Source of the DNA: Eledone cirrhosa
Lineage: Eukaryota
Direction of reading: 5' to 3'
DNA: 64,000 nt
Assembly: GCA_964016885.1 (NCBI GenBank)
Contig: OZ024760.1
Coordinates: forward strand, 5,580,001-5,644,000
In this document: piece after piece, positions 4,039-58,499 of the stretch
Layout: the number at the start of each line of letters is the position of its first letter
How positions within the stretch are numbered: position 1 is the stretch's first letter
Translations under genes and position numbers: made by a program
Notes under the pieces: model-generated
Database searches by the model: none
Told to the model about the DNA's origin: nothing
The model's input: the letters and a program-made list of their open reading frames with translations, nothing else

Positions 4039-5096
4039 ACACATACATACGTACATACACACACACATATGTGTGTGTGTATGTGTGTGTATGTGATGAT
4101 GAGGAGTTAAAGTATGATTTAAGTCCTGGCTGACTCTCCTACACATACATATATACACATATATACACACACACACACATACACACATACCTACACACAC
4201 ACACATACACACATGTCTAATCTGTGAGATTAGATAAATGACAAACAAGCACATTTGTTGAAATAAACCTGATCAATAGTCATTGTCTTATCTGACTAAC
4301 ATTACCACCACTACTACTGCTACCACCACCACCACTACCACTACTACTGTTACCACCACCACCACTACTACTACTGCTACCACTACTACTGTTACCACCA
4401 CCACTACTACTACTGCTACCACCACCACCACTATTACTACTAATGATGATGCTACTATTACTGGTACCAACACCACCACTACTACTACTGATGATGCTAC
4501 TACCACTACAGATATCACTACCACTACTGGTACCACTACCACCACCACTACTACTACCACTGTTTAAAACATTACTGTGGTCTTATGTAAACATTGTGTG
4601 GGTGGGAGAAGGGGGGGGGGTGTTTATTTAAACAGCTGAGCAATAACTCATTGGTCAGCTAACACTACCTATTACTAATTAATACACATCATCATCATCA
4701 TCATCACCATCATAGAAAATGGGTATTAAATGATTATATATATATATATCTTTAAGTTTTTATATATCTTTTATTATTCCACAATGCTTCAAGCAAACTT
4801 CAATACTCTCATATATATATATATATATATCATCATCATAATTCTACGTCCGCTTTTCCTTGCTTGCAAGGGTGGGACGGGTCCTATTTTTTGGGGGACA
4901 CCTTGTGTGTGTGTATGTATGTATGTATATATATATATATATAATGTAGGAGGTGAGTTTTATTGTAGTACAATAAAGCAATGCAGATATCGGATAAGAA
5001 GCACTCTACAGTTTGTAGGACTGGAGTATACATAATATGTTGATTTAAAACTGCACTATCCACAAGTGTTTTTTAGCCTTCATATCATGTTCTCCT

Positions 5097-5165
5097 GTTT
5101 TATCTGATGAAAACACAAATATTATTGCATGATGATGTTTGTTTTTGAAATGCGCATAATAAAAT
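5097..5165 (+). ncRNA. Type I hammerhead ribozyme motif (Penelope/retrozyme-like)
   Basis: ttttat-CTGATGA(5104-5110)-stem II acaaatattat/atgatgtttgt-GAAA(5147-5150)-palindromic stem III ATGCGCAT-A-ataaaa. Confidence 0.75.
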
Positions 5166-5197
5166 ACATGGAACTCCTTTAACTATCTTTTGATCTT

Positions 5198-5234
<37 letters not shown>

Positions 5235-8883: not shown

Positions 8884-34688
<25,805 letters not shown>

Positions 34689-45030: not shown

Positions 45031-48000
45031 CTTTGAACAAAGAAAAGAAATAAAGAAAATTTATAAAATTTAAAAAAGAAGCATTGTGTATATGTAGCTG
45101 ATCTCTCGGACTTTTACAAAGTGCTGAGAGGATAAAGTGGATATAAAGAATGATGTGCTCATGTGTGGAGATGTTATAAAATAGGGTGAAGACCCTTTAG
45201 CATTTAAACTGGCTTTATCTGGCCAGAATTCTCACACTTCTTCCTGGTGATAATGGGTTGCTTATACTTATGTTAAGGTATTGTTCTCAAAATAAATAAT
45301 ATAAAAATCTTGCAGTTTCGATATTATGTGAGATAATCATGTAAGATAAAGCTTTTACGACAAAAATACAATAGTATATATAGAGTAATAAAAAGAATTT
45401 TCCATAAGAAATTCAAAAATATTTGTTTTAAATTCTAAAATTTTCATTTAAGAACTTCTCTAAAAAAAAAAGAAAAAAACAATCCTTGCAAAACAAACAC
45501 AAAAAAATCCCCCTAACTCCAAATTCTTCTTCACCCCCTTATGAGAGGGTCAGTTAGGGCAATGTTCTCAAACACTCCTTCCAGTGGGTCTTGTCAGAAG
45601 CAACCATCCCCAAGCAATACCAGCCAAGCTCATGGATGTTATCCAATCATCTTGCTCGGGGTCTACCTTTAGATATCCCACCGGTTGGGTTTGCCCATAA
45701 GATCTGTCCATCTATTATTTTCTGAGACATTCTAACCACATCTGGGTTATCAGAACTGTAATCTCTCAATTCGGGGACTTAACGGTTCTACACTCTATTG
45801 AGCAATGTTGTTCCAAAGACCCAAAGTCTACCACTGGGTTTCCTGCCGGTTGGTTTTGCCCATAAATTCTGTCTAGGGATTCTTTCCTAAGACATTCTAA
45901 TCACATACCCATAATATCAGTGCAGTGATCTCTCAATTTGCTCTACTGGAAGCGACTCTCCTGTCTCCGAGCAACATGCTTTATCAAGAAACGTTACTCC
46001 AAAGACCCTTTGGAGGAACCCCATTTCAGTCACTTGTATTCTAAAATTTAATTACTAAAATTTTCATTTGAGAATTTCCTTTAACCCTTTAGCCTTTACA
46101 TTACTTTATATTTACTATTGTATTTTAGCAGTAAAGATTTTACCTCCCATCAGTATCTCACATAATATCGAATCTATGAGATTTTGATATTTATTTTGAG
46201 AACAATACGTTGGTATGAGTGGTCGGTTACGGCTGGTATAAACAGAGAGGTGAGAGAATGCTGGCCGGTTTAAATGTTAAAAGATTTTTTTTAAATGATC
46301 CAGGCAAAACAAATACAAAAATCTTGCTCCACACACACAAATACTAAAAAAATCTGAAAATCTAAAATTTAAAATTAACCTTTGATAGATTCCACTGTTA
46401 AAACATCTCTTCCATTGAGGTATTCAAACTGCAAAGCTTCTTGTTGTGACGATGCATCATAGCATGAATAATAGGTTGATTTACGATCAGTATTAAGACA
46501 TAACTGTGGGTATCTTGATATAGACATGGCTAACTGCGTGGCTTGACCAATAGCTGGAGGAGAGGAGGTGGTGGGGAGAGGGTGTAGTGGGATGAGAGAG
46601 GGAGAAAAATAAAAGAGATAAAGAACAGATTATTAACTGATTTGAATTTCGAAATGTCAAAGATCAAAAGAAAAGAAAACAAAGGAAAAACACACATGGT
46701 TGTGTAGTTAAGGAGTTTGGTCTCCAACCACATGGATTCAGGTTAAACTCCATAGTATGGCATTGCCTTTCATTAGAAATATGGTAATGAAAGGGTTAAT
46801 GACATAGACAATGTCTTTCACTAGAAATATGGTAATGAAAGGGTTAATGACATAAACAATGTCTTTCATTAGAAATATGGTAATGAAAGGGTTATGAGGG
46901 TAATAGAGATAAATAACAAGAACTACCTGTGCCATTGGGAACAACTCTGTTAGCCAGACCAAACTGAAGAGCTTCTTTACTGTCAACGGGACGTCCGGTT
47001 AAGATTAAATCCATGGCACGAGACAAACCAATGAGTTTTGGTAATCTTACTGTACAGCCATCAATAAGAGGTACTCCTGGAAATATTTAGAGAGGAATAA
47101 AGAGCAATTATATAAACCATATCATTACATGGTTTTACATGTGGTGTTACTAGATGGTATTACACAAACCATATTACTACATGACATATGAACCATACCA
47201 CTACATGACATATATGTGGCATCATTACATGGTATAATATAAACCATACAACTACATGGTATTATATGAATAATACCACCACATAGCATTACATGTAATA
47301 TCACTACATGGTATTTATATGAGTGGATTGGCAGTATCGGTAGAGGGTCGGACGCCATGCCTTGACACAAAGAGTTACGGCCCTTGCCAGTCTGAGTTCA
47401 AATCCCGCCGAGGTTAACTTTGCCTTTCATCCTTACGGGGTCGATAAAATAAAGTACCAGTAATGTACTGGGTAATTGCTGGCCTTGTGCCAAAAGTAGA
47501 AACAATTATATGAGTAATACCACCACATAGTATTACATGTAATATCACTACATGGTATTATATAAATCATACCGCATGGTATATGTGGCATCACTACATG
47601 GTATATATGTATCATTACATATTATACAAGTTACATTGCTACATGTTATGTATGTCTCACTACATGATATGAACCAGACCACTACATGTTATATAAGTTG
47701 TATCACCACACAGTATTGCTACATGATATTGTATAAGCTATATCACTATATAATGATATATATATATACCATATCACTACATGTTACACAACATGTAGCA
47801 ACATTGAGATATATAAACCATATCGTATATGTTTTTACACAATATGTAGCATTATGTTATATAAAGGGGGGTGGATTGGCAGTATCGGTAGAGGGTCGGA
47901 CGCCATGCTTTCCAGCATAGTTACGTCCCTTTACGATCTAAGTTCAAATCCTGCCGAGGTTGACTTTGCCTTTCATCCTTACGGGGTCGATAAAATAAAG

Positions 48001-51000
48001 TACCAGTAATGCACTGGGTAATTGCTGGCCTTGTGCCTAAAGTAGAAACAATTATGTTATATAAACATGGCTACATGTTAGAACACATGTAGTAACATTG
48101 TTATATATAAACATCACTACATGTTATTAGAAAACAATATATAGTAACATTGTGTTATATATAAACTATAGCACTACATGTAACAACATGTAGTGACATT
48201 GTGTTACATAAAGCACATTACTACACGTTATTCGAAAATAATGTATAGTAATATTGTTTTATATAAACTGCATTACTACATGTAACAACACCATGTAGTA
48301 ACATTGTGACATATATATAAACCACCCATTAGTACATGTAGTAACATTGTGAAATATATAAACCATATCACTACATGTAACACAACATTTTGTAGTAACA
48401 TTGTGTTATATAAATAAACCATGTTACTAAATATAGAAAAAGAACTGAAGCAAGCATGAAAAAACAGACATAAAACAGTTATTATGACGATGATGAAGAA
48501 AAAAGAGCAAAAAAAGATGAAAGCACTTTACCTAATCGTCTACAGAAGACACCCATGATGGCGGATTCTTCAACAATTCTGAGATCACACATTAGGGCCA
48601 ATTCCAAACCACCTGCAACAGCATAACCACTTACAGCAGCAATGACAGGCTTTGAAAATGACATTCTCGTTGGACCCTAAAATATATTTACAAAACACAA
48701 AAACAAAATGGTGTAGGACAGAACAAAGGAAGAGACACAAAATAAAAACCTAGTCATTGAGGAGGTCACAGAATGTGTGTGACAAAAGAGCTTTGACAAT
48801 ATATAAACAACCATCTGGTTATCGAACCAACCAGCTAACTGGAAATTTATAATAAACTGATGTGAAAACCAACAGGTGCATGTGTTTTTATTGGCAGACG
48901 ACATGGAGATCATCTTCTGTTGAGTTAAATAACACCAACTTGCACTTGATAGGTTTGATGCTGAGTGCTGCATGGCTAGAATGAAAATCAGTGCTGCGAA
49001 AACTGAGATACTCATCCTTTCAAGGAAGCCTGCGCAGTGCACTCTACATGTGAATAGAGTTCCACTGAAGCAGGTAGAGAAGTGAAAGTATCTCGAGTGA
49101 TGGAAAGCAGGAGGCTGAATTAAGTCCAACAATTGCAAAAGCTGGTGCAGTAATGCGCCAGATTCAGCATTTAGTAATCAGAAAATTCAATAAAAACCAA
49201 AAGAATATGATCACGAATACAAGCAGCTGAAATGGGATTCCTCCGAAGGTTCTTTGGAGTAACGTTACTCAATAAAGTGCGTAGCTCGGAGATCAGAGAG
49301 TCACTCCAGGTATAGCTGCTACTTCTCCGAGTTGAGAGATCACTGCTCCGATACTATGAGCATGTGGTTAAAATGTCTCAAGAAAGAATTGCTGGACAGA
49401 TTTCAGAGACAAAATCAACCGGCAAGAGACCCAGGGTAGACCCCCCAAGCAAGATGATTAGATAACATCCATGAGCTTGGATGGTCATGTTTGGGGATCC
49501 AGCAGGATCAGTTGGGGACGGTTGCTTTTGACAAGACCCGCTAGAAGGAGTGTTTGGGGACTGCCCCCACGATCCTCTCGGGAATAAGTGAGCGAAGAAG
49601 ATATATATACATATACACAGAGAGAAAAGCTAAATCCAATTTGTCCCAAAAGTGGGATAACTCTAATTTCAATGGTTATTAGAGCTCATTTTTTTTTTAC
49701 TGATTTTAGGCAATAAACAACACCTCACATTAAACCATGAACAAAAAAAGTGACAATGGTTTTATATGTACAGGAACATGGTACATTTTTCAGCCTGTGG
49801 CATTCAAAACATTTGGAGGAGCTTGACCACGCTATCTCTTGGTCATACTGAATTATGAACTGATGCTAGTGGTGGGTCTTGGCTGTTCCAGCTCCTTAGT
49901 CCCACTATAACCCTGTCTTACTGAAGTATGAAATGATACTCGTGGGAGTACCTGGCTCTTTACATATTTATTAATAAAAAGGCTCTAAAAACATTAATGA
50001 GAAACCAAAATACCATAGGAGACCGTTCTGTACGACCTGGGGAGTCAGGTAGGGTAGATTCTGTATGTCGAAATTCATCAGCAAGCTCCTTGAGATCAAA
50101 GCCAGCACAAAAATTGCCACCTGGAGGAAAAGAAAATATAAAATGGCAGCATAAGAATTACAGAAGATATTCTGCTCTGAATTAGTTTCCACAATTCTTC
50201 ATTTGATAACAGAATTTTATCCCCGAAATATTAAGGGATTTTAAACACTAGTGGTTACATTCTGAGACTAAATAGGTCAGGTGGTTACATTCTGAGACTA
50301 AATAGGTCAGGTGACCAGTTGTGGATTAGACTGGTGGTTACATTCTGAGACTAGGTAGGTCAAGTGACAGTCTTGGTTACAGGTTCCATTTTTGGCATCG
50401 GTTCTATAATTCCTAATAGGGTGTGTATTTTCTTGGCATTACCACTGTAGAGAGTACTGGGTATTTTCTTGGCATTACCACTTTACAAAGAGTACTGGGT
50501 ATTTTCTTGGCATTACCACTGTAGAGAGTACTGGGTATTTTCTTGGCATTACCACTTTACAAAGAGTACTGGGTATTTTCTTGGCATTACCACTGTACAG
50601 AGGCCTGGGTGCGTTTTATCATAGCACTACCACTATCCTTTACAGAGAGTACTGAGTATCGGTGCCTCTGACACAACCACTTTACGGAGTGTACAGGGTG
50701 CACTTTTTGGTGGCACTGACACTACCACTTTATAGGGAGTCCTGGATGTGTTTTTTTACAGCATCACAACTACCACTTTACAGAGTGTACTGGGTGCATT
50801 GTTTTGTTTCTCTTGTGGCACAAACACTGACTTAAAACAACAAAGATCTCCCGTCTTACCTTTACCATATAACACAGCTACGGACAAGTCATCCTTGTGT
50901 TCAAAGTCCTGAAATGCTCTATAGAGAGTGTTGGCAGCCAGAGAAGAAAGAGCATTTTTTTTTTCAGGATTGTTTATACCAATTAAACATATTTTACCGA

Positions 51001-53096
51001 TCATTTCAACTGTAATGACATCTGTAAAAATAACAAGAGAGGAAGATCATTTCAACTGTTAAGTCATGTGTAGAAATAACAGAGGAAAAGATCATTTCAA
51101 CTGTTAAGTCATGTGTAGAAATAACAGAGGAAAAGATCATTTCAACTGTTAAGTCATCTGTTCAAATAACAAGAAAGGAAGGGAGAGGAAGACCATCTCA
51201 ATATAACAGTTTCTGATTTAACCCTTTAGCATTTATATTACTCTATATATACTATTGTATCTTCGTGGTAAAGGCTTTACCTCACATAATTATCTCACAA
51301 TATCAAATCTACGAGATTTTGAGAACAATACCTTAACGTCAGTATGAGCAGCCAGTTATAGCTGGTTTGAACAGAACGAGGTGAGAGAATTCTGGCAGGT
51401 TTCTGGCCGATTTAAATGTTAAAGGGTTAAGCATAGGGCCAACGATTGTGGGGGAGGGGAAAGATTAAATCAACCCAAGTGCATTACTGGAACTTTATTT
51501 TATTGACTCCACAAGGAAGAATGGCAAAACTAATGTCAGTGGAATTTGAACTCTGTATGTAAAGGGGCGTAACTCTACGCTGCAAAGCATATTGTCCAAT
51601 GCTCTACCGATTCTGCCAATCCACTGCCCTTATCAACTGTAATGACATCTGTAGAAATAACAAGAGGGTGGGAGGGAAAGATCATTTCAACTGTAATGAT
51701 ATCTGTAGAAATAACAAGAGGGTGGGAGGGAAAGATCATTTCAACTGTAATGACATCTGTAGAAATAACAAGAGGGTGGGAGGGAAAGATCATTTCAACT
51801 GTAATGACATCTGTAGAAATAACAAGAGGGTGGGAGGGAAAGATCATTTCAACTGTAATGATATCTAGAAATAACAAGAGGGTGGGAGGGAAAGATCATT
51901 TCAACTGTAATGATATCTGTAGAAATAACAAGAGGGTGGGAGGGAAAGATCATTTCAACTGTAATGACATCTGTAGAAATAACAAGAGGGTGGGAGGGAA
52001 AGATCATTTCAACTGTAATGACATCTGTAGAAATAACAAGAGGGTGGGAGGGAAAGATCATTTCAACTGTAATGACATCTGTAGAAATAACAAGAGGGTG
52101 GGAGGGAAAGATCATTTCAACTGTAATGATATCTAGAAATAACAAGAGGGTGGGAGGGAAAGATCATTTCAACTGTAATGATATCTGTAGAAATAACAAG
52201 AGGGTGGGAGGGAAAGATCATTTCAACTGTAATGACATCTGTAGAAATAACAAGAGGGTGGGAGGGAAAGATCATTTCAACTGTAATGACATCTGTAGAA
52301 ATAACAAGAGGGTGGGAGGGAAAGATCATTTCAACTGTAATGACATCTGTAGAAATAACAAGAGGGTGGGAGGGAAAGATCATTTCAACTGTAATGACAT
52401 CTGTAGAAATAACGAGGGTGGGAGGGAAAGATCATTTCAACTGTAATGATATCTGTAGAAATAACAAGAGGGTGGGAGGGAAAGATCATTTCAACTGTAA
52501 TGATATCTGTAGAAATAACAGAGGGAGGGGAAAGATCTTTTTTAACTGTAAAGACATCTGTAGAAAAAAATATAGAATCACACTGGTGGTCATGTATGTG
52601 TCAAGACAAAAGTGCCCAGTCCACACAGTTAAGTGGTCGTGTAGGAGTCACGACAAAAAGTGCCCAGTCCACACAGTAAAATGGTCGTGTAGGAGTCACG
52701 ACAAAAAGTGCCCAGTCCACACAGTTAAGTGGTCGTGTAGGAGTCACGACAAAATGCGCCCAGTCCACACTGACGTGGTCGTGTCAGCGACATAAAAAGT
52801 ACCCAGTCTACGCTGTAAATTGGTCGTGTAGGTGACACGACAAAAAGCTCCCAGCACACACTGTAAATGTGGTTGGCGTTAGGAAGGGCATCCAGCTGTA
52901 GAAACCAAGCCAAAAATCAGCCACGGATGAGCGAAACACTGTCTTCTGACCCGATTCTCTCCCAAAGGGTCAGTCCGTCCTACTCATGCGTGAAAAATGA
53001 ACGCTAAACGATGATGACTATGAATCACAAAAATATGACTAAATGCTAACCTAAAATAGTGAAACTAGGGGATTTAATCCGTGGGGCGGGACGCAT
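44963..53096 (-). CDS. Enoyl-CoA hydratase/isomerase (crotonase superfamily) protein, ~283 aa, 7 exons: 53096-53051, 51021-50860, 50120-50014, 48676-48532, 47076-46927, 46553-46380, 45030-44963
   Basis: Spliced minus-strand translation MRPAPRIKSPSFTIL DVITVEMIGKICLIGINNPEKKNALSS...VAVLYGKGGNFCAGFDLKEL...SKPVIAAVSGYAVAGGLELALMCDLRIVEESAIMGVFCRRLGVPLIDGCTVRLPKLIGLSRAMDLILTGRPVDSKEALQFGLANRVV...GAKKFVEGYGKHGTFDEDSKDK*. Crotonase oxyanion motifs FCAGxDL and AGGLE are present. Exon lengths 46+162+107+145+150+174+68=852 nt, phases consistent. Confidence 0.93.
45550..46040 (-). mobile_element. RTE/Rex3-like LINE 3' relic (two overlapping pieces)
   Basis: Reverse complement of the 32345-32865 family. 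Confidence 0.7.
46380..46553 (-). CDS. Hydratase exon 6 (174 nt) IGQATQLAMSISRYPQLCLNTDRKS...ESIK(G)
   Basis: cctccag|CTATTGGT...ATCAAAG|gttaat. Confidence 0.93.
46927..47076 (-). CDS. Hydratase exon 5 (150 nt) VPLIDGCTVRLPKLIGLSRAMDLILTGR...NRVVPNGT
   Basis: tttccag|GAGTACCT...GGCACAG|gtagtt. Confidence 0.95.
47868..48055 (+). mobile_element. CORE-type SINE copy
   Basis: Near-identical to 11203-11393. Confidence 0.85.
48532..48676 (-). CDS. Hydratase exon 4 (145 nt) GPTRMSFSKPVIAAVSGYAVAGGLELALMCDLR...CRRL(G)
   Basis: attttag|GGTCCA...CGATTAG|gtaaag. Confidence 0.95.
48890..49600 (+). mobile_element. RTE/Rex3-like LINE RT + 3' relic in hydratase intron
   Basis: Degenerate LADDM, MKISAAKTE, KYL motifs, then the same 3' end as the 32345 family. 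Confidence 0.8.
50014..50120 (-). CDS. Hydratase exon 3 (107 nt) GNFCAGFDLKELADEF...SPM
   Basis: cctccag|GTGGCAAT...CCTATG|gtattt. Confidence 0.93.
50860..51021 (-). CDS. Hydratase exon 2 (162 nt)
   Basis: tttttacag|ATGTCATT...GGTAAAG|gtaaga; INNPEKKNAL motif. Confidence 0.92.
51222..51426. mobile_element. piggyBac-type MITE copy in hydratase intron 1
   Basis: TTAA CCCTTTAGCATTTA...TAAATGTTAAAGGG TTAA. Confidence 0.85.
51633..52565. repeat. 54-bp tandem repeat, ~17-18 copies, derived from the hydratase intron1/exon2 junction; 268-bp higher-order period
   Basis: Unit aactgtaatgacatctgtagaaataacaagagggtgggagggaaagatcatttc vs real junction at 51001-51050; 52-bp variants at ~51851, 52119, 52387. 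Confidence 0.95.
53051..53096 (-). CDS. Hydratase putative first coding exon MRPAPRIKSPSFTIL(D)
   Basis: CAAAATG start context; donor TTAG|gttagc in phase 1 matches exon 2; locally CpG-richer unique sequence. No homology support for this exon. Confidence 0.6.
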
Positions 53097-53427
53097 TTTG
53101 TTCGGTGGGAATTTTGTGTCTGTCTGTCACCCAAAACACCCTCCTCCCCTCGATATTACTGCGTGTGAAAGCAGCAAAGTTAGTTCGCAGAATGAAGAGA
53201 TTAAATAGTAGAAAGTATGAAATGTTTATTACTTCTACAGATAAATATGGTTTATTTCCAGTTGAGACGTTAAGATAATAAAACACAATACAACAGAAAG
53301 ACGTAGGTGTAAAGTAGAAAGTTTGTATTAGAGATGCTTAACATCTAGCTTGCACGAGTTAAAGTATTTTTAACTTACTTAACCAAGTTTACAAGGAGAT
53401 ACGGTTACCACGAAAAAAAAACAAAAA

Positions 53428-53462
<35 letters not shown>

Positions 53463-53877
53463 AATACAAATACAAACAGCTTAAAATAATCACTTCGTAG
53501 TCGCTCGACCTGCTAAAAATAGCAGCCAAGACAAATATGGAGCTAAACCCAAACTTAAAGTGATCACTGCGTAGTCGCTCGACCTGCTAAAAATAGCAGC
53601 CAATTGTCCAACAAATCATATTGTCTTACCTACTATTGTATTAGAAAATAATCATATGTGGTATAATATGTGAAGTTGGGAAGAGTTGGACATTATGCCT
53701 AGGTAGATTGCGACGGCATGGTTGCGGCCTGAAACATATTTGATTATAGGGTCCAAGCTAATTAAGGCTGACCTGGGGCTAAACGATCACAACTACAAGA
53801 ACAACATCAGCAATAGCCGCAATAATAAGCCTACAGATCTTATATTTTAGAAATCAGCTGATATTTTGAAATTAATG

Positions 53878-53918
<41 letters not shown>

Positions 53919-53962
53919 TGAAAAAGAACAAAGGAACTATTATGACATTATAACAAGTTTAT

Positions 53963-54009
53963 TGCCGACAGCCGTTTCGTCCGACCCCATGGTGGGACTT
54001 ATCAAGGCA
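53963..54009 (-). ncRNA. Type I hammerhead motif with U3:A8 variant core
   Basis: Minus strand TGCC-TTGATAA-GTCC...GGAC-GAAA-CGGCTG-TC-GGCA; all three stems pair; GUC triplet. Confidence 0.7.
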
Positions 54010-54605
54010 TATAACATGTGATTGCAAGATCATTGTTTACATCAACGTATCACTCAAGGCTAGCAGTTTGAAATTGTTGTATACATCAGCAACTCCGCTT
54101 GTATAGTTGGGGGTCTATATTCTAAGGGGGGGGGGGGGGGGGGCTCTTTTATATTAGTTGTCGGGGTCAGGGATTGAAGTTTAAAAATTAGACAAAAATA
54201 TATAATTTACGCATCAACATTAAACTAAAAGACTTAGGGTCCCGTAGAAGCACCTTAGAAAATCCCTCAATGAGTGCATAAAGCTTAGGGCTCCAATAAA
54301 CCTACTAGACTAGAAGGTAAGTCAGACGTGATCATCGCGATTCACATACGACCTACCATACATCTTACTTATATATATATATATATGCAAAAGTTCTATT
54401 TAAAGTTGTTGGGATACAAGTAAATATTTTTATAACTTATATAAAGCACTCGACAAATTTTTGGAGTAGATATACGATATTAATAAATGGAAACTATATT
54501 TATAAAACCATATTTATAAAACCATATCTATCCAGACAGCCTCCAAAAGTAATGGTTGTATTTTAAAGGGTACGTCAAACCTATTTGTAAAACTGTTATA
54601 TATTG

Positions 54606-54670
54606 TATTTTGTCTGATGAAGGCATACCATAATTTAATGTGGTATCCCTGAAATATATATAATGAAATA
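54606..54670 (+). ncRNA. Type I hammerhead motif
   Basis: tattttgt-CTGATGA(54614-54620)-AGGcATACCA/TGGTATcCCT-GAAA(54651-54654)-TATATA-TA-atgaaata. Confidence 0.75.
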
Positions 54671-54708
54671 AATATGGTTTTATAAATATAGTTTCCATTT
54701 ATTAATAT

Positions 54709-54760
<52 letters not shown>

Positions 54761-55174
54761 TATTGAAGTTTCCGTTGAAAATTGAAAAAGTCATAGGAGT
54801 GAAGAGTGCTCTGTGTAAGTTACAGAGCTAAATTTAATGTATAATAAACAATATATAATTACTTCATTACCAGAGGTTTCCCGAATAAGACGAATAGAAC
54901 GAACGAATGCGGACGTTTCTTGTATTCGTCTTATTCGGGAAACCTCTGGTAATGAGGTAAATTATATTGTATTGTTTATTATATATATAAATGAAAGGTA
55001 TAGAAATTGTTTTAGCGAGAAGCTAACAGTATTCCATAACATATATATATATATACACGGGTGTGTACGATTATGTATAGAAGATTATATTAATAAAAGG
55101 AATTCCAACTTTGTCTGATTTACTCGTTTTATTTACAATCCTTTAAAATTATAATATTATAATAAAAGACAATA

Positions 55175-55213
55175 TGAACCTGAAGATTGCGAAAGCATGA
55201 AAGTACTTGTTCA
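55175..55213 (+). ncRNA. Minimal type I hammerhead motif (39 nt)
   Basis: TGAAC-CTGAAGA-tTGC GAAA GCAt-GAAA-GTAC-TT-GTTCA; palindromic AAGTACTT stem III. Confidence 0.75.
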
Positions 55214-55307
55214 ATTAACACTTAACATTTAATATTCTACCATACTATTTCATTATAATTTTAAAAGATTGTAAATAAAACGAGTAAATCAGACAAAGTT
55301 GGAATTC

Positions 55308-55342
<35 letters not shown>

Positions 55343-55993
55343 TTATTTATTTGCCACAAGGGCGTACAAAAATGGGACATTACAAGACGTGACGGCGAAA
55401 GAATATATTGTAATGTTATTTATGTATATATTTAAAACATATTTGTTATGTTATTCTACCGTAAATTTATTCACATGCTCTGTTTATATTTTCACTGTCA
55501 AAGAATTGCAAACAATTTGTAATGTTATTTATACAACTGTGAATAATAAACTATATATAAAATAAAATAACAATCGAAATCCCCAATAGGGAGGAACAGT
55601 ACACCACGTAGATAGAACCCTCAACACCAGGAGCACGTTTTGTAGGTGTTCCTGTCTTCCTCAACCTACAGGTTTATATACAGAGAAGGACCATTCACTC
55701 GGGCCATTTCCGTCACGTTCATCCACCTTTCAGCGAATTTACAGAGGTGTACCACCTCTCTCTCTCCACTCTCACCTTCCTTCTGAAGTGGCATTTAAAG
55801 AAGATAGTGAGTTGTTGTCTATATATATATATAACGTGGTGTCCTTGAAATATGTATAATAAAATAAATATGGTTTTATAAATATAGTTTCCATTTGTTA
55901 ATATCGTATGTTTACTCCAAATACTTGTTGAGTGCTTTATATCAGTTATAAAAATATTTGCTTGTTGTATCTCAACAATTTAAATAGAACTTT

Positions 55994-56058
<65 letters not shown>

Positions 56059-56726
56059 CGAAGGAAATGTGGTAAGGAACCAGGCGGACCATAACGCACC
56101 AAAGTACTCAATACTTAGGGTAGTAGAGTGGGTAATAGGAACGAGTAGGACCCCGACGGCTGAGCTCAAGCCATTTCGACGGCTAATTCTGGACTGAACG
56201 GCTAATTCTGGACTCAGTCCAGAATTAGCCCTCGAAACGGCTTGAGCTCTGCCGTCGGGGTCCTACTCGTTCCTATATATATAGAGAGAGAGAGACAGAG
56301 AGAGAAAGAGTAAAATATTTTTCACAGATAGACGAACGAAGAGGAAGTGGATTAAAAGTAAACAAGAAAAACGAAAATGTTCAAATATCCCAGATGAAAT
56401 TAGCCGGAATGCCTTTATATATAAAGGCACCGTTGAATAGGTGACGATCGTTTACCGACAGCAGTTTCTAATCGGCCCGATTGTTTACAAACGTATCGAA
56501 CGTTACTATTAATGTTCGATATAACCCATATGTATATATATATGTGTATGTATATATATATATATATATATATATAACGAGGAACCAGATGGATCATAAC
56601 GCACCAAAGTACTCAATACTTAGGGTAGTAGAGTGGGTAATAGGAACAAGTATGACCCCGACGGTGTGTGTACGTGTGCATACTTACATTTATATATCAG
56701 CTGTGCTAGGGCGAGAAACAAAATTC

Positions 56727-56779
<53 letters not shown>

Positions 56780-57085
56780 GACATTTGTTTATTTTTAATG
56801 GACTAATATCGATTGATTTTCGATATAACATCAATGTCCACTCTTACTGTGCAATATCTGAAACTTGTTAGCCATTAAATATATACATGTATTCATAAAT
56901 CTTCGTTGTTCTCTCCAGCATTTTAAATATATATATATATATGTGTGTGTGCGTTGGATGCCAAAATTTCTATAAATTTGGTGGCCTACTGATGAGTTCG
57001 GTTAGGGGTGTGTTTATATTTACTATATATATATATATATTATTCAGAATATTAATAAATGAAAACATTCACATAATCAAAATAT

Positions 57086-57153
57086 ATGTTTTATTATATA
57101 TATTTCGAAGGTACTGTGCTGTTTTTTCAGTACGTCCTCGTCAGATAAAATAT
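57086..57153 (-). ncRNA. Type I hammerhead motif
   Basis: Minus strand tattttat-CTGACGA-GGAcGTACTG/CAGTACcTTC-GAAA-TATATA-TA-ataaaaca. Confidence 0.75.
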
Positions 57154-57461
57154 ATGATTTGATGTATGACATACCTCAACGGTCTTGATGGTTTAATTCC
57201 AGTATTGGCAGTACTGAAAAAACAGCACAGTACCTTCGAAATGTATATAATAAAACATATATTTTGATTATGTGAATGTCTTCATTTATTAATATTCTGA
57301 ATAATATTAATAACTCCAGAAAACTTTCACTGCGGAGTGCTTTTAATCTATTGTAAAGCTATATTCATTGAGTAATCAATTAACCATATTAATCTTTGGT
57401 TATATATATATATATATATACAATATTAAATAAATGGAAACTATATTTATAAAACCATATT

Positions 57462-57527
57462 TATTTCATTATATATATTTCGGGGATATCATATTAACAA
57501 TATGCTATGCCTTCCTCAGACAAAATA
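57462..57527 (-). ncRNA. Type I hammerhead motif
   Basis: Minus strand tattttgt-CTGAGGA-aggcatagcatatt/aatatgatatcccc-GAAA-TATATA-TA-atgaaata; same family as 54606-54670. Confidence 0.7.
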
Positions 57528-57971
57528 CAATATTGTTAATATGATATCCCCGAAATATATATAATGAAATAAATATGGTTTTATAAATATAGTTTCCATT
57601 TATTTAATATTGTAAATATACTCCAAATATTTGTCGAGTGCTTTTATATCAGTTATAAATATTTACTAGTTGTAACCCAACAATTTTAAATATAACTTTC
57701 CATATATATAAATATATATATATATAGAAATTATATTTGTTTGGCAGGTGATCTGAGACGGGGGGGGGGGGGGTCAAAACAATTATATTGTGAAAGATTC
57801 GTGTTCGTCATTTAACATACAAACAAACAAACAAACTGTTAAATTCACTTTATATTTGTAAACAATTTGTAATATTCATTTATACAACTGTGAATAAAGT
57901 ACATTATCATAAAGGTGTTGCAGTGGACGAAAATATTGACAGCTACAAAATAACTTATTACGTGAAGTTTT

Positions 57972-58118
57972 AATCACAATTAATACTTAAGTTTAAATCA
58001 CAATTAATACTTAAGTTTCAATCACAATTAATACTTAAGTTTAAATCACAATTAATACTTAAGTTTAAATCACAATTAATACTTAAGTTTCAATCACAAT
58101 TAATACTTAAATTTTAAT
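57972..58118. repeat. 23-bp tandem repeat x6 (aatcacaattaatacttaagttt)
   Basis: Direct reading. Confidence 0.9.
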
Positions 58119-58499
58119 CGTATTTGTAATAAGTCACGTAATGTGAAGTTAGCAAGTTCCATTTTTTTTAAAAATATTTTTCTGGTATTTTTTCAAAGGT
58201 TAAAAAATAATTCTTCCACGGTGAAATTGTTTACTGCTTAAAACAAAACAAACAAAAATAATGATGATTATATCATCTAAAATTCAAAAACAAAGGTATT
58301 CAAACCTTTTTTGGTGGTGTCATGTAAATACCGTCCAGTTTGTTGTGAGAAAATTGTCTTTAAATTTCGTCCACGTTGGACGAGAGAACAATTTAAACAT
58401 CTTAAACCGAGAAGACCAAATGGCTGGGCCATTTCAATTAAAGGGGTTACTGCTTGTTCTCTCTTTCTCTTTCTCACTCTAATTAACACTAACTTATTG

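What the first reader, a model, noticed from the sequence alone, without database searches (positions are those of the whole stretch)
53880..57710. Hotspot of ~10 ribozyme/palindrome elements immediately upstream of the hydratase gene
Seen: within 3.8 kb, islands separated by (TA)n tracts at about 53915-54360, 54387-54710, 54760-54990, 55090-55313, 55830-55995, 56057-56276, 56420-56520, 56575-56663, 57040-57400 and 57421-57700. Five carry complete hammerhead cores and most are inverted repeats. They begin ~0.8 kb from the putative start codon. Inference: repeated insertion into TA tracts, each insertion leaving new TA targets, in open promoter-proximal chromatin. They could terminate or process divergent transcripts or generate dsRNA.
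Basis: partly seen in the sequence, partly recalled or inferred. Interest (0 to 1): 0.7.

Follow-up and report, generated by a model that had tools for sequence, protein, structure and literature searches.

The report
Penelope-like retrotransposon pile-up in an intron
This is a dense pile of short, broken copies of a known kind of jumping gene that inserts into TA repeats, lying inside the first intron of an octopus-type hydratase gene rather than in front of it; the one fresh point is a small RNA hairpin shared by the ends of these copies and of related elements in coral and sea cucumber.

Summary
The cluster is real: five hammerhead cores (one U3-A8 variant), three half-hammerheads and six fold-back elements, each bounded by (TA)n. 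The location is wrong. Octopus orthologues and a spliced contig place coding exon 1 at 58432-58306, so the cluster lies in intron 1, not upstream.

Nine of the ten islands are 5'-truncated 3' ends of high-copy Penelope-like retroelements (PLEs). All six fold-backs have one arm flush with TA and the other extended by a 40-96 nt tail: the known inverted-pLTR-plus-tail signature. Hammerhead form, TA targeting and tail sequence resemble the Hydra clade (by eye; no ORF found, so membership is unproven).

Density is about 18 times the rest of the window and about 2.5 times the TA-tract expectation. A host function is unlikely: two of the three sense-strand ribozymes are buried in 83-94 bp hairpins.

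Not found in my paper searches: an RCUC...GAGY-RCU tail hairpin shared by four families here and by coral and sea-cucumber Hydra consensus ends, a candidate recognition signal for the element's protein. The scan noted TA-targeted PLE-pattern repeats in another genome before.

The parts
58306..58432 (-). True coding exon 1 of the enoyl-CoA hydratase (42 codons + 1 nt; reads like a mitochondrial transit peptide, by my inference); GT donor at 58305
   Evidence: tblastn with P0002/P0003; X4 contig 16 ends at 58306 with 0 differences; junction letters
51022..58305 (-). Intron 1 (7,284 nt, phase 1) that holds the whole cluster; exon 2 starts at 51021
53915..54369 (-). I1, family F: solo 5'-truncated PLE-like 3' end; minimal hammerhead with U3-A8 core at 54005, predicted cut after 53967; no inverted arm; upstream frames recall an endonuclease C-terminus (recalled, unproven)
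   Evidence: a contig of organism D is identical over 53957-54057; protein searches negative
54386..54710 (+). I2, family A fold-back: tail 54386-54475 (90 nt), arms 54476-54517 / 54668-54709 (42 of 42), complete hammerhead core at 54614, predicted cut after 54662
54759..54979 (+). I3, family E fold-back: tail 85 nt, arms 54844-54905 / 54914-54979 (58 of 66), 3' half of a hammerhead only (site after 54959)
   Evidence: relative at 11409-11644
54990..55041 (.). I3b: high-copy 52-nt piece; either the distal part of the I4 tail or a separate element end (unresolved)
   Evidence: depth 159,108 at 55012 in X1
55056..55311 (+). I4, family C fold-back: tail 40 nt (106 if I3b belongs to it), arms 55096-55155 / 55252-55311 (59 of 60), complete hammerhead core at 55180 in the loop, predicted cut after 55208; Hydra-type U.U extension of helix II
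   Evidence: compared by eye
55338..55819 (.). I4b: high-copy repeat sequence not assigned to a family
   Evidence: summed depth 67,811-108,017; no Pfam hit for two frames; no fold-back
55834..55995 (+). I5, family A solo copy: truncated in helix II (3' half-hammerhead), carries the tail
56058..56273 (+). I6, family D fold-back: tail 80 nt, arms 56138-56197 / 56214-56273 (57 of 60), 3' half-hammerhead with 5-bp helix III (site after 56256)
   Evidence: relatives at 25589-25797 and 26977-27027
56419..56532 (.). I7: low-copy sequence, not one of the elements
56577..56664 (-). I8, family D solo tail-bearing end (94% identical to I6 over 85 nt)
57040..57400 (-). I9, family B fold-back (related to A): arms 57040-57133 / 57211-57304 (92 of 94), tail 57305-57400 (96 nt), complete core at 57144, predicted cut after 57095
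57421..57702 (-). I10, family A fold-back: arms 57421-57503 / 57530-57612 (83 of 83), tail 90 nt, complete core at 57519 with first helix-II pair broken, predicted cut after 57470

Best explanation
The islands are independent insertions of six high-copy families of Penelope-like retroelements, five of them Hydra-like, reduced to their last 90-450 nt.

Mechanism. The element's GIY-YIG endonuclease nicks a (TA)n tract (established preference of Hydra, Naiad and Neptune PLEs; inferred here). Reverse transcription is primed twice, once from each target strand, at two start sites in the element RNA: one at the tail-less end, where the RNA continues with UA/UAU and can pair with the TA primer, and one 40-96 nt further 3', at the end of the tail (inferred from the anatomy and from in vitro work on another PLE). 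Both cDNAs stop early and are joined head to head. This gives a fold-back with one arm flush against TA and one arm carrying the tail (shown as anatomy in 6 of 6). A single priming leaves a solo end (I1, I5, I8). Each insertion splits one TA tract into two new targets, so insertions pile up (inferred).

The hammerheads are passengers from the pLTR. In 4 of 6 fold-backs both arms run through the cleavage site, so uncleaved RNA was the template. For the host this is neutral intronic clutter that is spliced out and may be edited by ADAR as a by-product (inferred).
For: [quoted passage not shown] Hammerheads: type I with palindromic helix III and a U3-A8 variant, as described for PLEs (PMC4209133, parts 1-2 of 4). 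High copy: 36,966 X1 contigs laid on 5.5 kb; summed depth 6e3-1.2e6 over the islands against 9-14 on unique flanks (not a copy number). Arms within an element are 88-100% alike while family-A copies are 85-93% alike. Five of 6 tails in the region begin with TA, four with TAT; TAT frequency in tails is 0.048. Both-strand cleavage and extension, two RT starts that define the tail, and no need for HHR cleavage are shown in vitro for the anole PLE (PMC11167929, parts 1-2 of 4). Hydra PLEs target (TA)n, carry canonical HHRs and occur in Octopus bimaculoides. Their HHR table and 3' ends resemble families B-E by eye.
Against: No RT or endonuclease ORF was tied to any family: no genome held, metagenome scans blank or a chance hit, protein searches with I1 frames negative. 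Five exact 14-16-mers of the window families and one peptide term are absent from the Craig supplement (0 of 6). Of four window-derived 10-mers, only one hit Hydra ends; one hit two unrelated places and two hit nothing. Tails of 65-96 nt are longer than the 30-40 bp in print. The UA microhomology differs from the 'not homologous' start reported for the anole PLE, and the I2 tail starts with G. Double priming cannot be told from snap-back synthesis on eight elements. Genome-wide background could not be measured.
Confidence: 0.85

Rival explanations
1. Co-opted regulatory array: the ribozymes and hairpins in intron 1 cut or fold the pre-mRNA (or an antisense RNA) and tune hydratase expression.
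For: Density exceeds both the length-based and the TA-based expectation. The intron is transcribed, since a spliced contig exists. Three hammerheads lie on the pre-mRNA strand. The antisense I4 hammerhead is foldable in context (ddG 0, P 0.57). Young repeats are the main A-to-I targets in animals (PMC9989829, passages).
Against: I9 and I10 ribozymes are locked in 94- and 83-bp duplexes (ddG 54 and 65 kcal/mol); I1 has P(helix I) 0.002 in context. I10 has a broken first helix-II pair. Minimal PLE hammerheads are inactive as monomers and weak as dimers in vitro. Orientation is mixed and the parts are generic high-copy repeats.
Confidence: 0.07
2. TA-inserting MITEs or foldback DNA transposons (Tc1/mariner type), with hammerheads carried by chance.
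For: Short inverted-repeat elements flanked by TA. Tc1-mariner elements and MITEs are active in Octopus vulgaris (PMC13282606, parts 1-2 of 3).
Against: The repeats are not terminal at both ends: one end always carries an unpaired tail. Arm lengths and inner junctions vary between copies of one family. Solo one-ended copies exist. Hammerheads sit at a fixed distance from the flush end with covarying helix II.
Confidence: 0.03
3. Same PLE origin, but the fold-backs come from one priming event followed by snap-back or template-switch synthesis on the nascent cDNA, not from two primings.
For: Arms share private variants (I10 83 of 83). I6 has a duplicated 16-nt piece at the junction and I2 a short duplication, as template jumping would leave.
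Against: The second end falls at a family-fixed position 40-96 nt from the first in every fold-back with both ends intact, which matches the two fixed RT starts seen in vitro. Both target strands are extended in vitro.
Confidence: 0.2

Closest known systems
Hydra-clade Penelope-like elements (Craig et al. 2021, PMC8557442; e.g. Hydra-1_Obim, Hydra-2_Ajap, Hydra-2_Amil, Hydra-1_Crog)
   Same: (TA)n targets; type-I hammerhead within about 200 nt of the 3' end; I4 shows the same extra U.U at the base of helix II as most rows of their HHR table; tail hairpin GCTC...GAGC-ACT exact in 3 of 6 published new consensus sequences, variant in 2, not clear in 1 (by eye); clade present in Octopus.
   Different: No ORF here; none of the window families matches Hydra-1_Obim by exact word; copies are 90-450 nt remnants; the paper's main text (passages and section 11 seen) gives tails as 30-40 bp and, in what I read, does not mention a tail hairpin.
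Minimal hammerheads of metazoan PLEs (Cervera and de la Pena 2014, PMC4209133)
   Same: Type I, short palindromic helix III, U3-A8 core variant, mostly single motifs in truncated PLEs, pairs 100-700 bp apart on opposite strands.
   Different: Families A, B and F have a C.C mismatch at pair 4-5 of helix II (5 of 6 copies); family A uses A-U at 10.1-11.1; families D and E have a 5-bp helix III.
Poseidon PLE of Anolis (PAc; Frangieh et al. 2024, PMC11167929)
   Same: Cuts AT-rich DNA on both strands, two RT start sites define the tail, HHR cleavage not needed for insertion.
   Different: Other clade; shorter tail; its start site is reported as not homologous to the target, whereas tails here mostly begin with TA/TAT.
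Non-LTR retrozymes (PMC7229834, search listing only; preprint 10.64898/2026.07.22.740005, part 1 of 5 read)
   Same: Non-coding, type-I hammerhead, proposed to derive from PLE pLTRs.
   Different: Retrozymes are head-to-tail tandem units each with a complete HHR; these copies are solo or inverted and often hold half a hammerhead.

Membership tests
Penelope-like elements (EN+) | ORF with telomerase-related RT and GIY-YIG endonuclease | tested here: inconclusive
   Copies are too short to hold it; I1 frames gave no hit; no genome to extend copies
Penelope-like elements (EN+) | 5'-truncated copies with an inverted 5'-truncated copy attached | tested here: met
   6 of 10 islands
Penelope-like elements (EN+) | Tail extension at one end only | tested here: met
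   6 of 6 fold-backs in the region; length 40-96 nt, longer than the 30-40 bp quoted in print
Penelope-like elements (EN+) | Type-I hammerhead in the pLTR | tested here: met
   5 complete and 3 half motifs; activity not tested
Penelope-like elements (EN+) | Dispersed, multicopy | tested here: met
Hydra clade | RT with DKT/RWK motifs, C-terminal EN lacking CCHH, CxCX5C linker; placement in the RT tree | not testable with these tools
   No coding sequence linked to families A-E
Hydra clade | Insertion into (TA)n | tested here: met
   shared with Naiad and Neptune, so not diagnostic alone
Hydra clade | Canonical HHR near the 3' end, of the form in File S2 | tested here: met
   By-eye comparison only; closest for I4, looser for A/B and D/E; not for I1
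Naiad clade | Lack of canonical HHR | tested here: not met
   HHRs present; Naiads lack them
Non-LTR retrozymes | Head-to-tail tandem units each with a complete HHR | tested here: not met
   No tandem units in the region; definition
MITE / foldback DNA transposon | Inverted repeats terminal at both ends | tested here: not met
   One end unpaired by 40-96 nt in 6 of 6

The most novel reading that the evidence does not exclude
The tail of TA-targeting, Hydra-like PLEs holds a conserved RNA hairpin (RCUC-N12-18-GAGY followed by RCU, with an A-U/G-C compensatory swap at its base), kept from corals and sea cucumbers to octopods. It is the cis signal that the RT-endonuclease binds to set its two start sites: one just upstream, primed by UA pairing with the nicked (TA)n, and one at the tail end. 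Octopod genomes would then hold thousands of double-primed fold-back insertions that record the PLE integration reaction in vivo and supply 40-95 bp intronic dsRNA to ADAR.
Probability: 0.45. Interest if true: 0.55.

Novelty: new member of a known kind. Interest (0 to 1): 0.3.

Why it matters
As a locus it matters little: it is intronic transposon debris, and the claimed promoter position is a gene-model error. As a sample it bears on an open question. [quoted passage not shown] One 64-kb window shows a strict one-tail/one-flush rule, read-through of the ribozyme site, and a tail hairpin shared across phyla. That hairpin is a concrete target for mutation in an in vitro assay and a short motif for finding Hydra-like PLE ends that repeat pipelines may file as SINEs, MITEs or unknown (inference).

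Tried and rejected
Whole-genome background: no genome is held, so density against TSSs and presence/absence in relatives were not measured.

ATG at 53096 as start codon: it has a phase-compatible donor but no homology support, and run X4 has no cover at 53000-53367 (weak on its own). It is not excluded as a minor alternative exon.

No RNA holder was listed. X4 is not on record as RNA; I infer it from the spliced contig. Change spectra mix paralogues and cannot show editing.

Rfam: no hammerhead at gathering score; the miRNA-family hits are far below gathering and reflect generic hairpins.

I1 as an endonuclease remnant: the motif likeness is recalled. Pfam 0 of 2 frames. The only representative hit, P0004, is a repetitive junk translation. 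Homolog search 0 of 4 candidates; Atlas no usable hit.

Metagenome scans: family-A word 0 hits; I1 word 1 hit, a chance 20-mer in a bacterial contig.

An automated count of fold-backs between TA tracts undercounted because the hammerhead's own (TA)4 splits islands: 4 in versus 3 out, Fisher p 0.05 against TA-flanked islands. I replaced it with the tail-motif count. The first tail-motif script had a greedy-match bug, corrected. The motif was defined from these same sequences, so its shuffle values are post hoc. Two of the six terms were taken from the Hydra consensus sequences themselves and hit by construction.

Core at 56989(+) has no GAAA partner and is not counted. Supplements of the other papers were not read; they may describe tail structures.
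Full report
Setting. The window is repeat-rich animal DNA. One exon of the neighbouring gene finds two proteins, enoyl-CoA hydratases of Octopus bimaculoides and O. vulgaris, at 86% and 83% identity (2 of 8 candidates; Pfam ECH_1). The source is therefore an octopod. No whole genome is held.

The gene model. tblastn of both orthologues maps residues 1-44 to 58432-58307 (E 3.7e-10 and 1.3e-8) and residue 45 onward to 51022, then five more exons down to 44966; nothing listed falls near 53096. The exon ends in a phase-1 GT donor at 58305 that fits the phase-1 acceptor at 51022. In run X4 a 1,249-nt contig matches 58306-58500 without a difference and carries 1,032 further letters that do not lie on the stretch laid, as a spliced transcript would; X4 is not on record as RNA. 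The cluster therefore lies in the 7,284-nt first intron, 0.6-4.4 kb downstream of the donor.

Hammerheads. A strict type-I descriptor finds cores at 54614(+), 57144(-) and 57519(-): 3 against a shuffle mean of 0.007. A descriptor allowing U3-A8 adds 54005(-) but loses 57519, whose first helix-II pair is broken. The fifth, 55180(+), was read by hand and folds well. I3, I5 and I6 keep only GAAA, helix III and the cleavage triplet. Helix III is a short palindrome in families A, B, C and F, the form described for PLE minimal hammerheads, which also include U3-A8 variants and are nearly inactive as monomers (PMC4209133, parts 1-2 of 4). A contig of another organism is identical across the I1 core, so U3-A8 is probably a family trait, not decay. 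Rfam does not call these at gathering score.

Anatomy. Six islands fold back. In all six, one arm ends 0-1 nt from a TA tract and the other continues as an unpaired tail of 90, 85, 40, 80, 96 and 90 nt before its TA tract; 11409-11644 and 25589-25797 do the same (65 and 76 nt). Two further outside candidates are less clean: 23364-23682 has a deleted left arm and a right arm ending at the hammerhead, and 27577-27700 lacks a right TA flank. Arms within an element are 88-100% identical; family-A copies are 89-93% identical to each other in the cluster and 85-88% to the copy at 23.4 kb. So each element is one event and the cluster is several. In I3, I6, I9 and I10 both arms run 33-45 nt past the predicted cleavage site; in I2 and I4 the tailed arm stops short of it. 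Five of the six tails begin with TA, four with TAT.

Copy number and density. Run X1 lays 36,966 contigs on 5.5 kb. Summed depth is 9-14 on unique flanks, 6e3-1.2e6 over the element bins, and 106 over I7. The tool warns that this is no copy number; I read it only as high-copy, genome-wide families, with I7 excluded. A tail motif found across families gives 13 hits in the window (shuffle mean 0.65, maximum 4 in 60) and 7 in the region (mean 0.008 in 500). That is about 18-fold the density of the rest of the window (7 in 3.8 kb against 6 in 60 kb). Fifteen of 69 merged TA clusters lie in the region, predicting 2.8 of 13; binomial p 0.011, scan statistic 0.006. The cluster is real but much of it follows TA density, which insertions themselves raise. 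The motif was defined here, so these values are post hoc.

Comparison with known elements. Craig et al. (PMC8557442; passages, section 11, supplement parts 2, 52 and 53, and supplement searches) describe PLE insertions as 5'-truncated, often with an inverted copy and a 30-40 bp tail at one end, and the Hydra clade as (TA)n-targeting with canonical hammerheads, with one family in O. bimaculoides. By eye, I4 has the extra U.U at the base of helix II seen in most rows of their Hydra table. The tail motif RCTC-N12-18-GAGY-RCT occurs in 9 of 10 tails examined, in families A, B, D and E but not C, with ACTC/GAGT in A, B, D and GCTC/GAGC in E. It is exact at the 3' ends of Hydra-2_Amil and Hydra-2_Ajap and twice at the 5' end of Hydra-1_Ajap, variant in Hydra-1_Crog and Hydra-1_Amil, and not clear in Hydra-1_Obim. 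The family-E 10-mer occurs twice in the 584-kb supplement, both at Hydra termini; three other window 10-mers did not hit Hydra. No window family matches a published consensus by exact word. Membership of the clade is defined on the protein and could not be tested. Paper searches (terms pLTR/tail/stem-loop and Hydra clade/hairpin/tail) returned no listing that describes this hairpin; searches returned none on octopod fold-back hammerhead elements. The library lacks most subscription journals, and Repbase was not available.

Mechanism. Shown: anatomy, TA flanks, dispersal, intronic position. From the literature: a PLE protein cuts and extends both strands of AT-rich DNA, starts RT at two sites that bound the tail, and does not need ribozyme cleavage (PMC11167929, parts 1-2 of 4). 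Inferred: two primings, one per strand and one per start site, joined head to head; UA pairing at the tail-less start; the tail hairpin as the protein's binding signal; pile-up because each insertion leaves two TA targets. Snap-back synthesis remains a rival for the second arm.

Effect on the host. I1, I9 and I10 are on the pre-mRNA strand. Folding the ribozyme costs 54 and 65 kcal/mol in I9 and I10 and 5.6 in I1 (monomer folds only, dimers not modelled). Only the antisense I4 is freely foldable. Cleavage of the pre-mRNA is thus unlikely, and a spliced contig exists. The hairpins are likely ADAR substrates by analogy with other young repeats (PMC9989829, passages); this was not tested.

Verdict. 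Observation partly confirmed, position refuted, interpretation partly supported. New members of a known kind. Interest 0.3, carried by the tail hairpin and the strict end asymmetry rather than by this locus.

Noticed in passing
window 51630-52560 (-): Tandem array of about 54-nt units in intron 1, each a copy of the exon-2 splice acceptor and first codons: 15 exact-word copies besides the real one at 51024, with further degenerate copies just upstream of exon 2. Possible decoy acceptors.
   Followed up: partly
window 23364-23682: Family-A relative whose right arm ends at the (TA)4 of hammerhead helix III, i.e. at the predicted cleavage site. It may have been primed on ribozyme-cut RNA ending in (UA)4, or simply been deleted between TA runs. 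One case only.
   Followed up: partly
window 54614, 57519, 57144, 23638, 54005: A C.C mismatch at pair 4-5 of helix II is kept in 5 of 6 hammerheads compared, across families A, B and F, with covarying neighbours; perhaps a tertiary contact.
   Followed up: partly
window 26937-27027 (+): Possible complete family-D hammerhead with a long helix II and a 5-bp helix III, which could be active as a monomer.
   Followed up: no
window 54288-54655: In run X4 (probably RNA) family-A sequence has summed depth 13,557-16,654 against 187 for exon 1; some family-A copy may be strongly transcribed, but contigs cannot rank expression.
   Followed up: no
window 5027, 30453, 61661: Further tail-hairpin hits outside the cluster; 4944-5201 also holds a hammerhead at 5104 but no detectable fold-back.
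   Followed up: partly
window 11039-11390: Inverted pair of a SINE-like repeat that also appears twice in the hydratase intron at about 47370-47500 and 47880-48050.
   Followed up: no
window 29151-29221 (+): tRNA-like sequence at Rfam gathering score, probably a SINE head.
   Followed up: no
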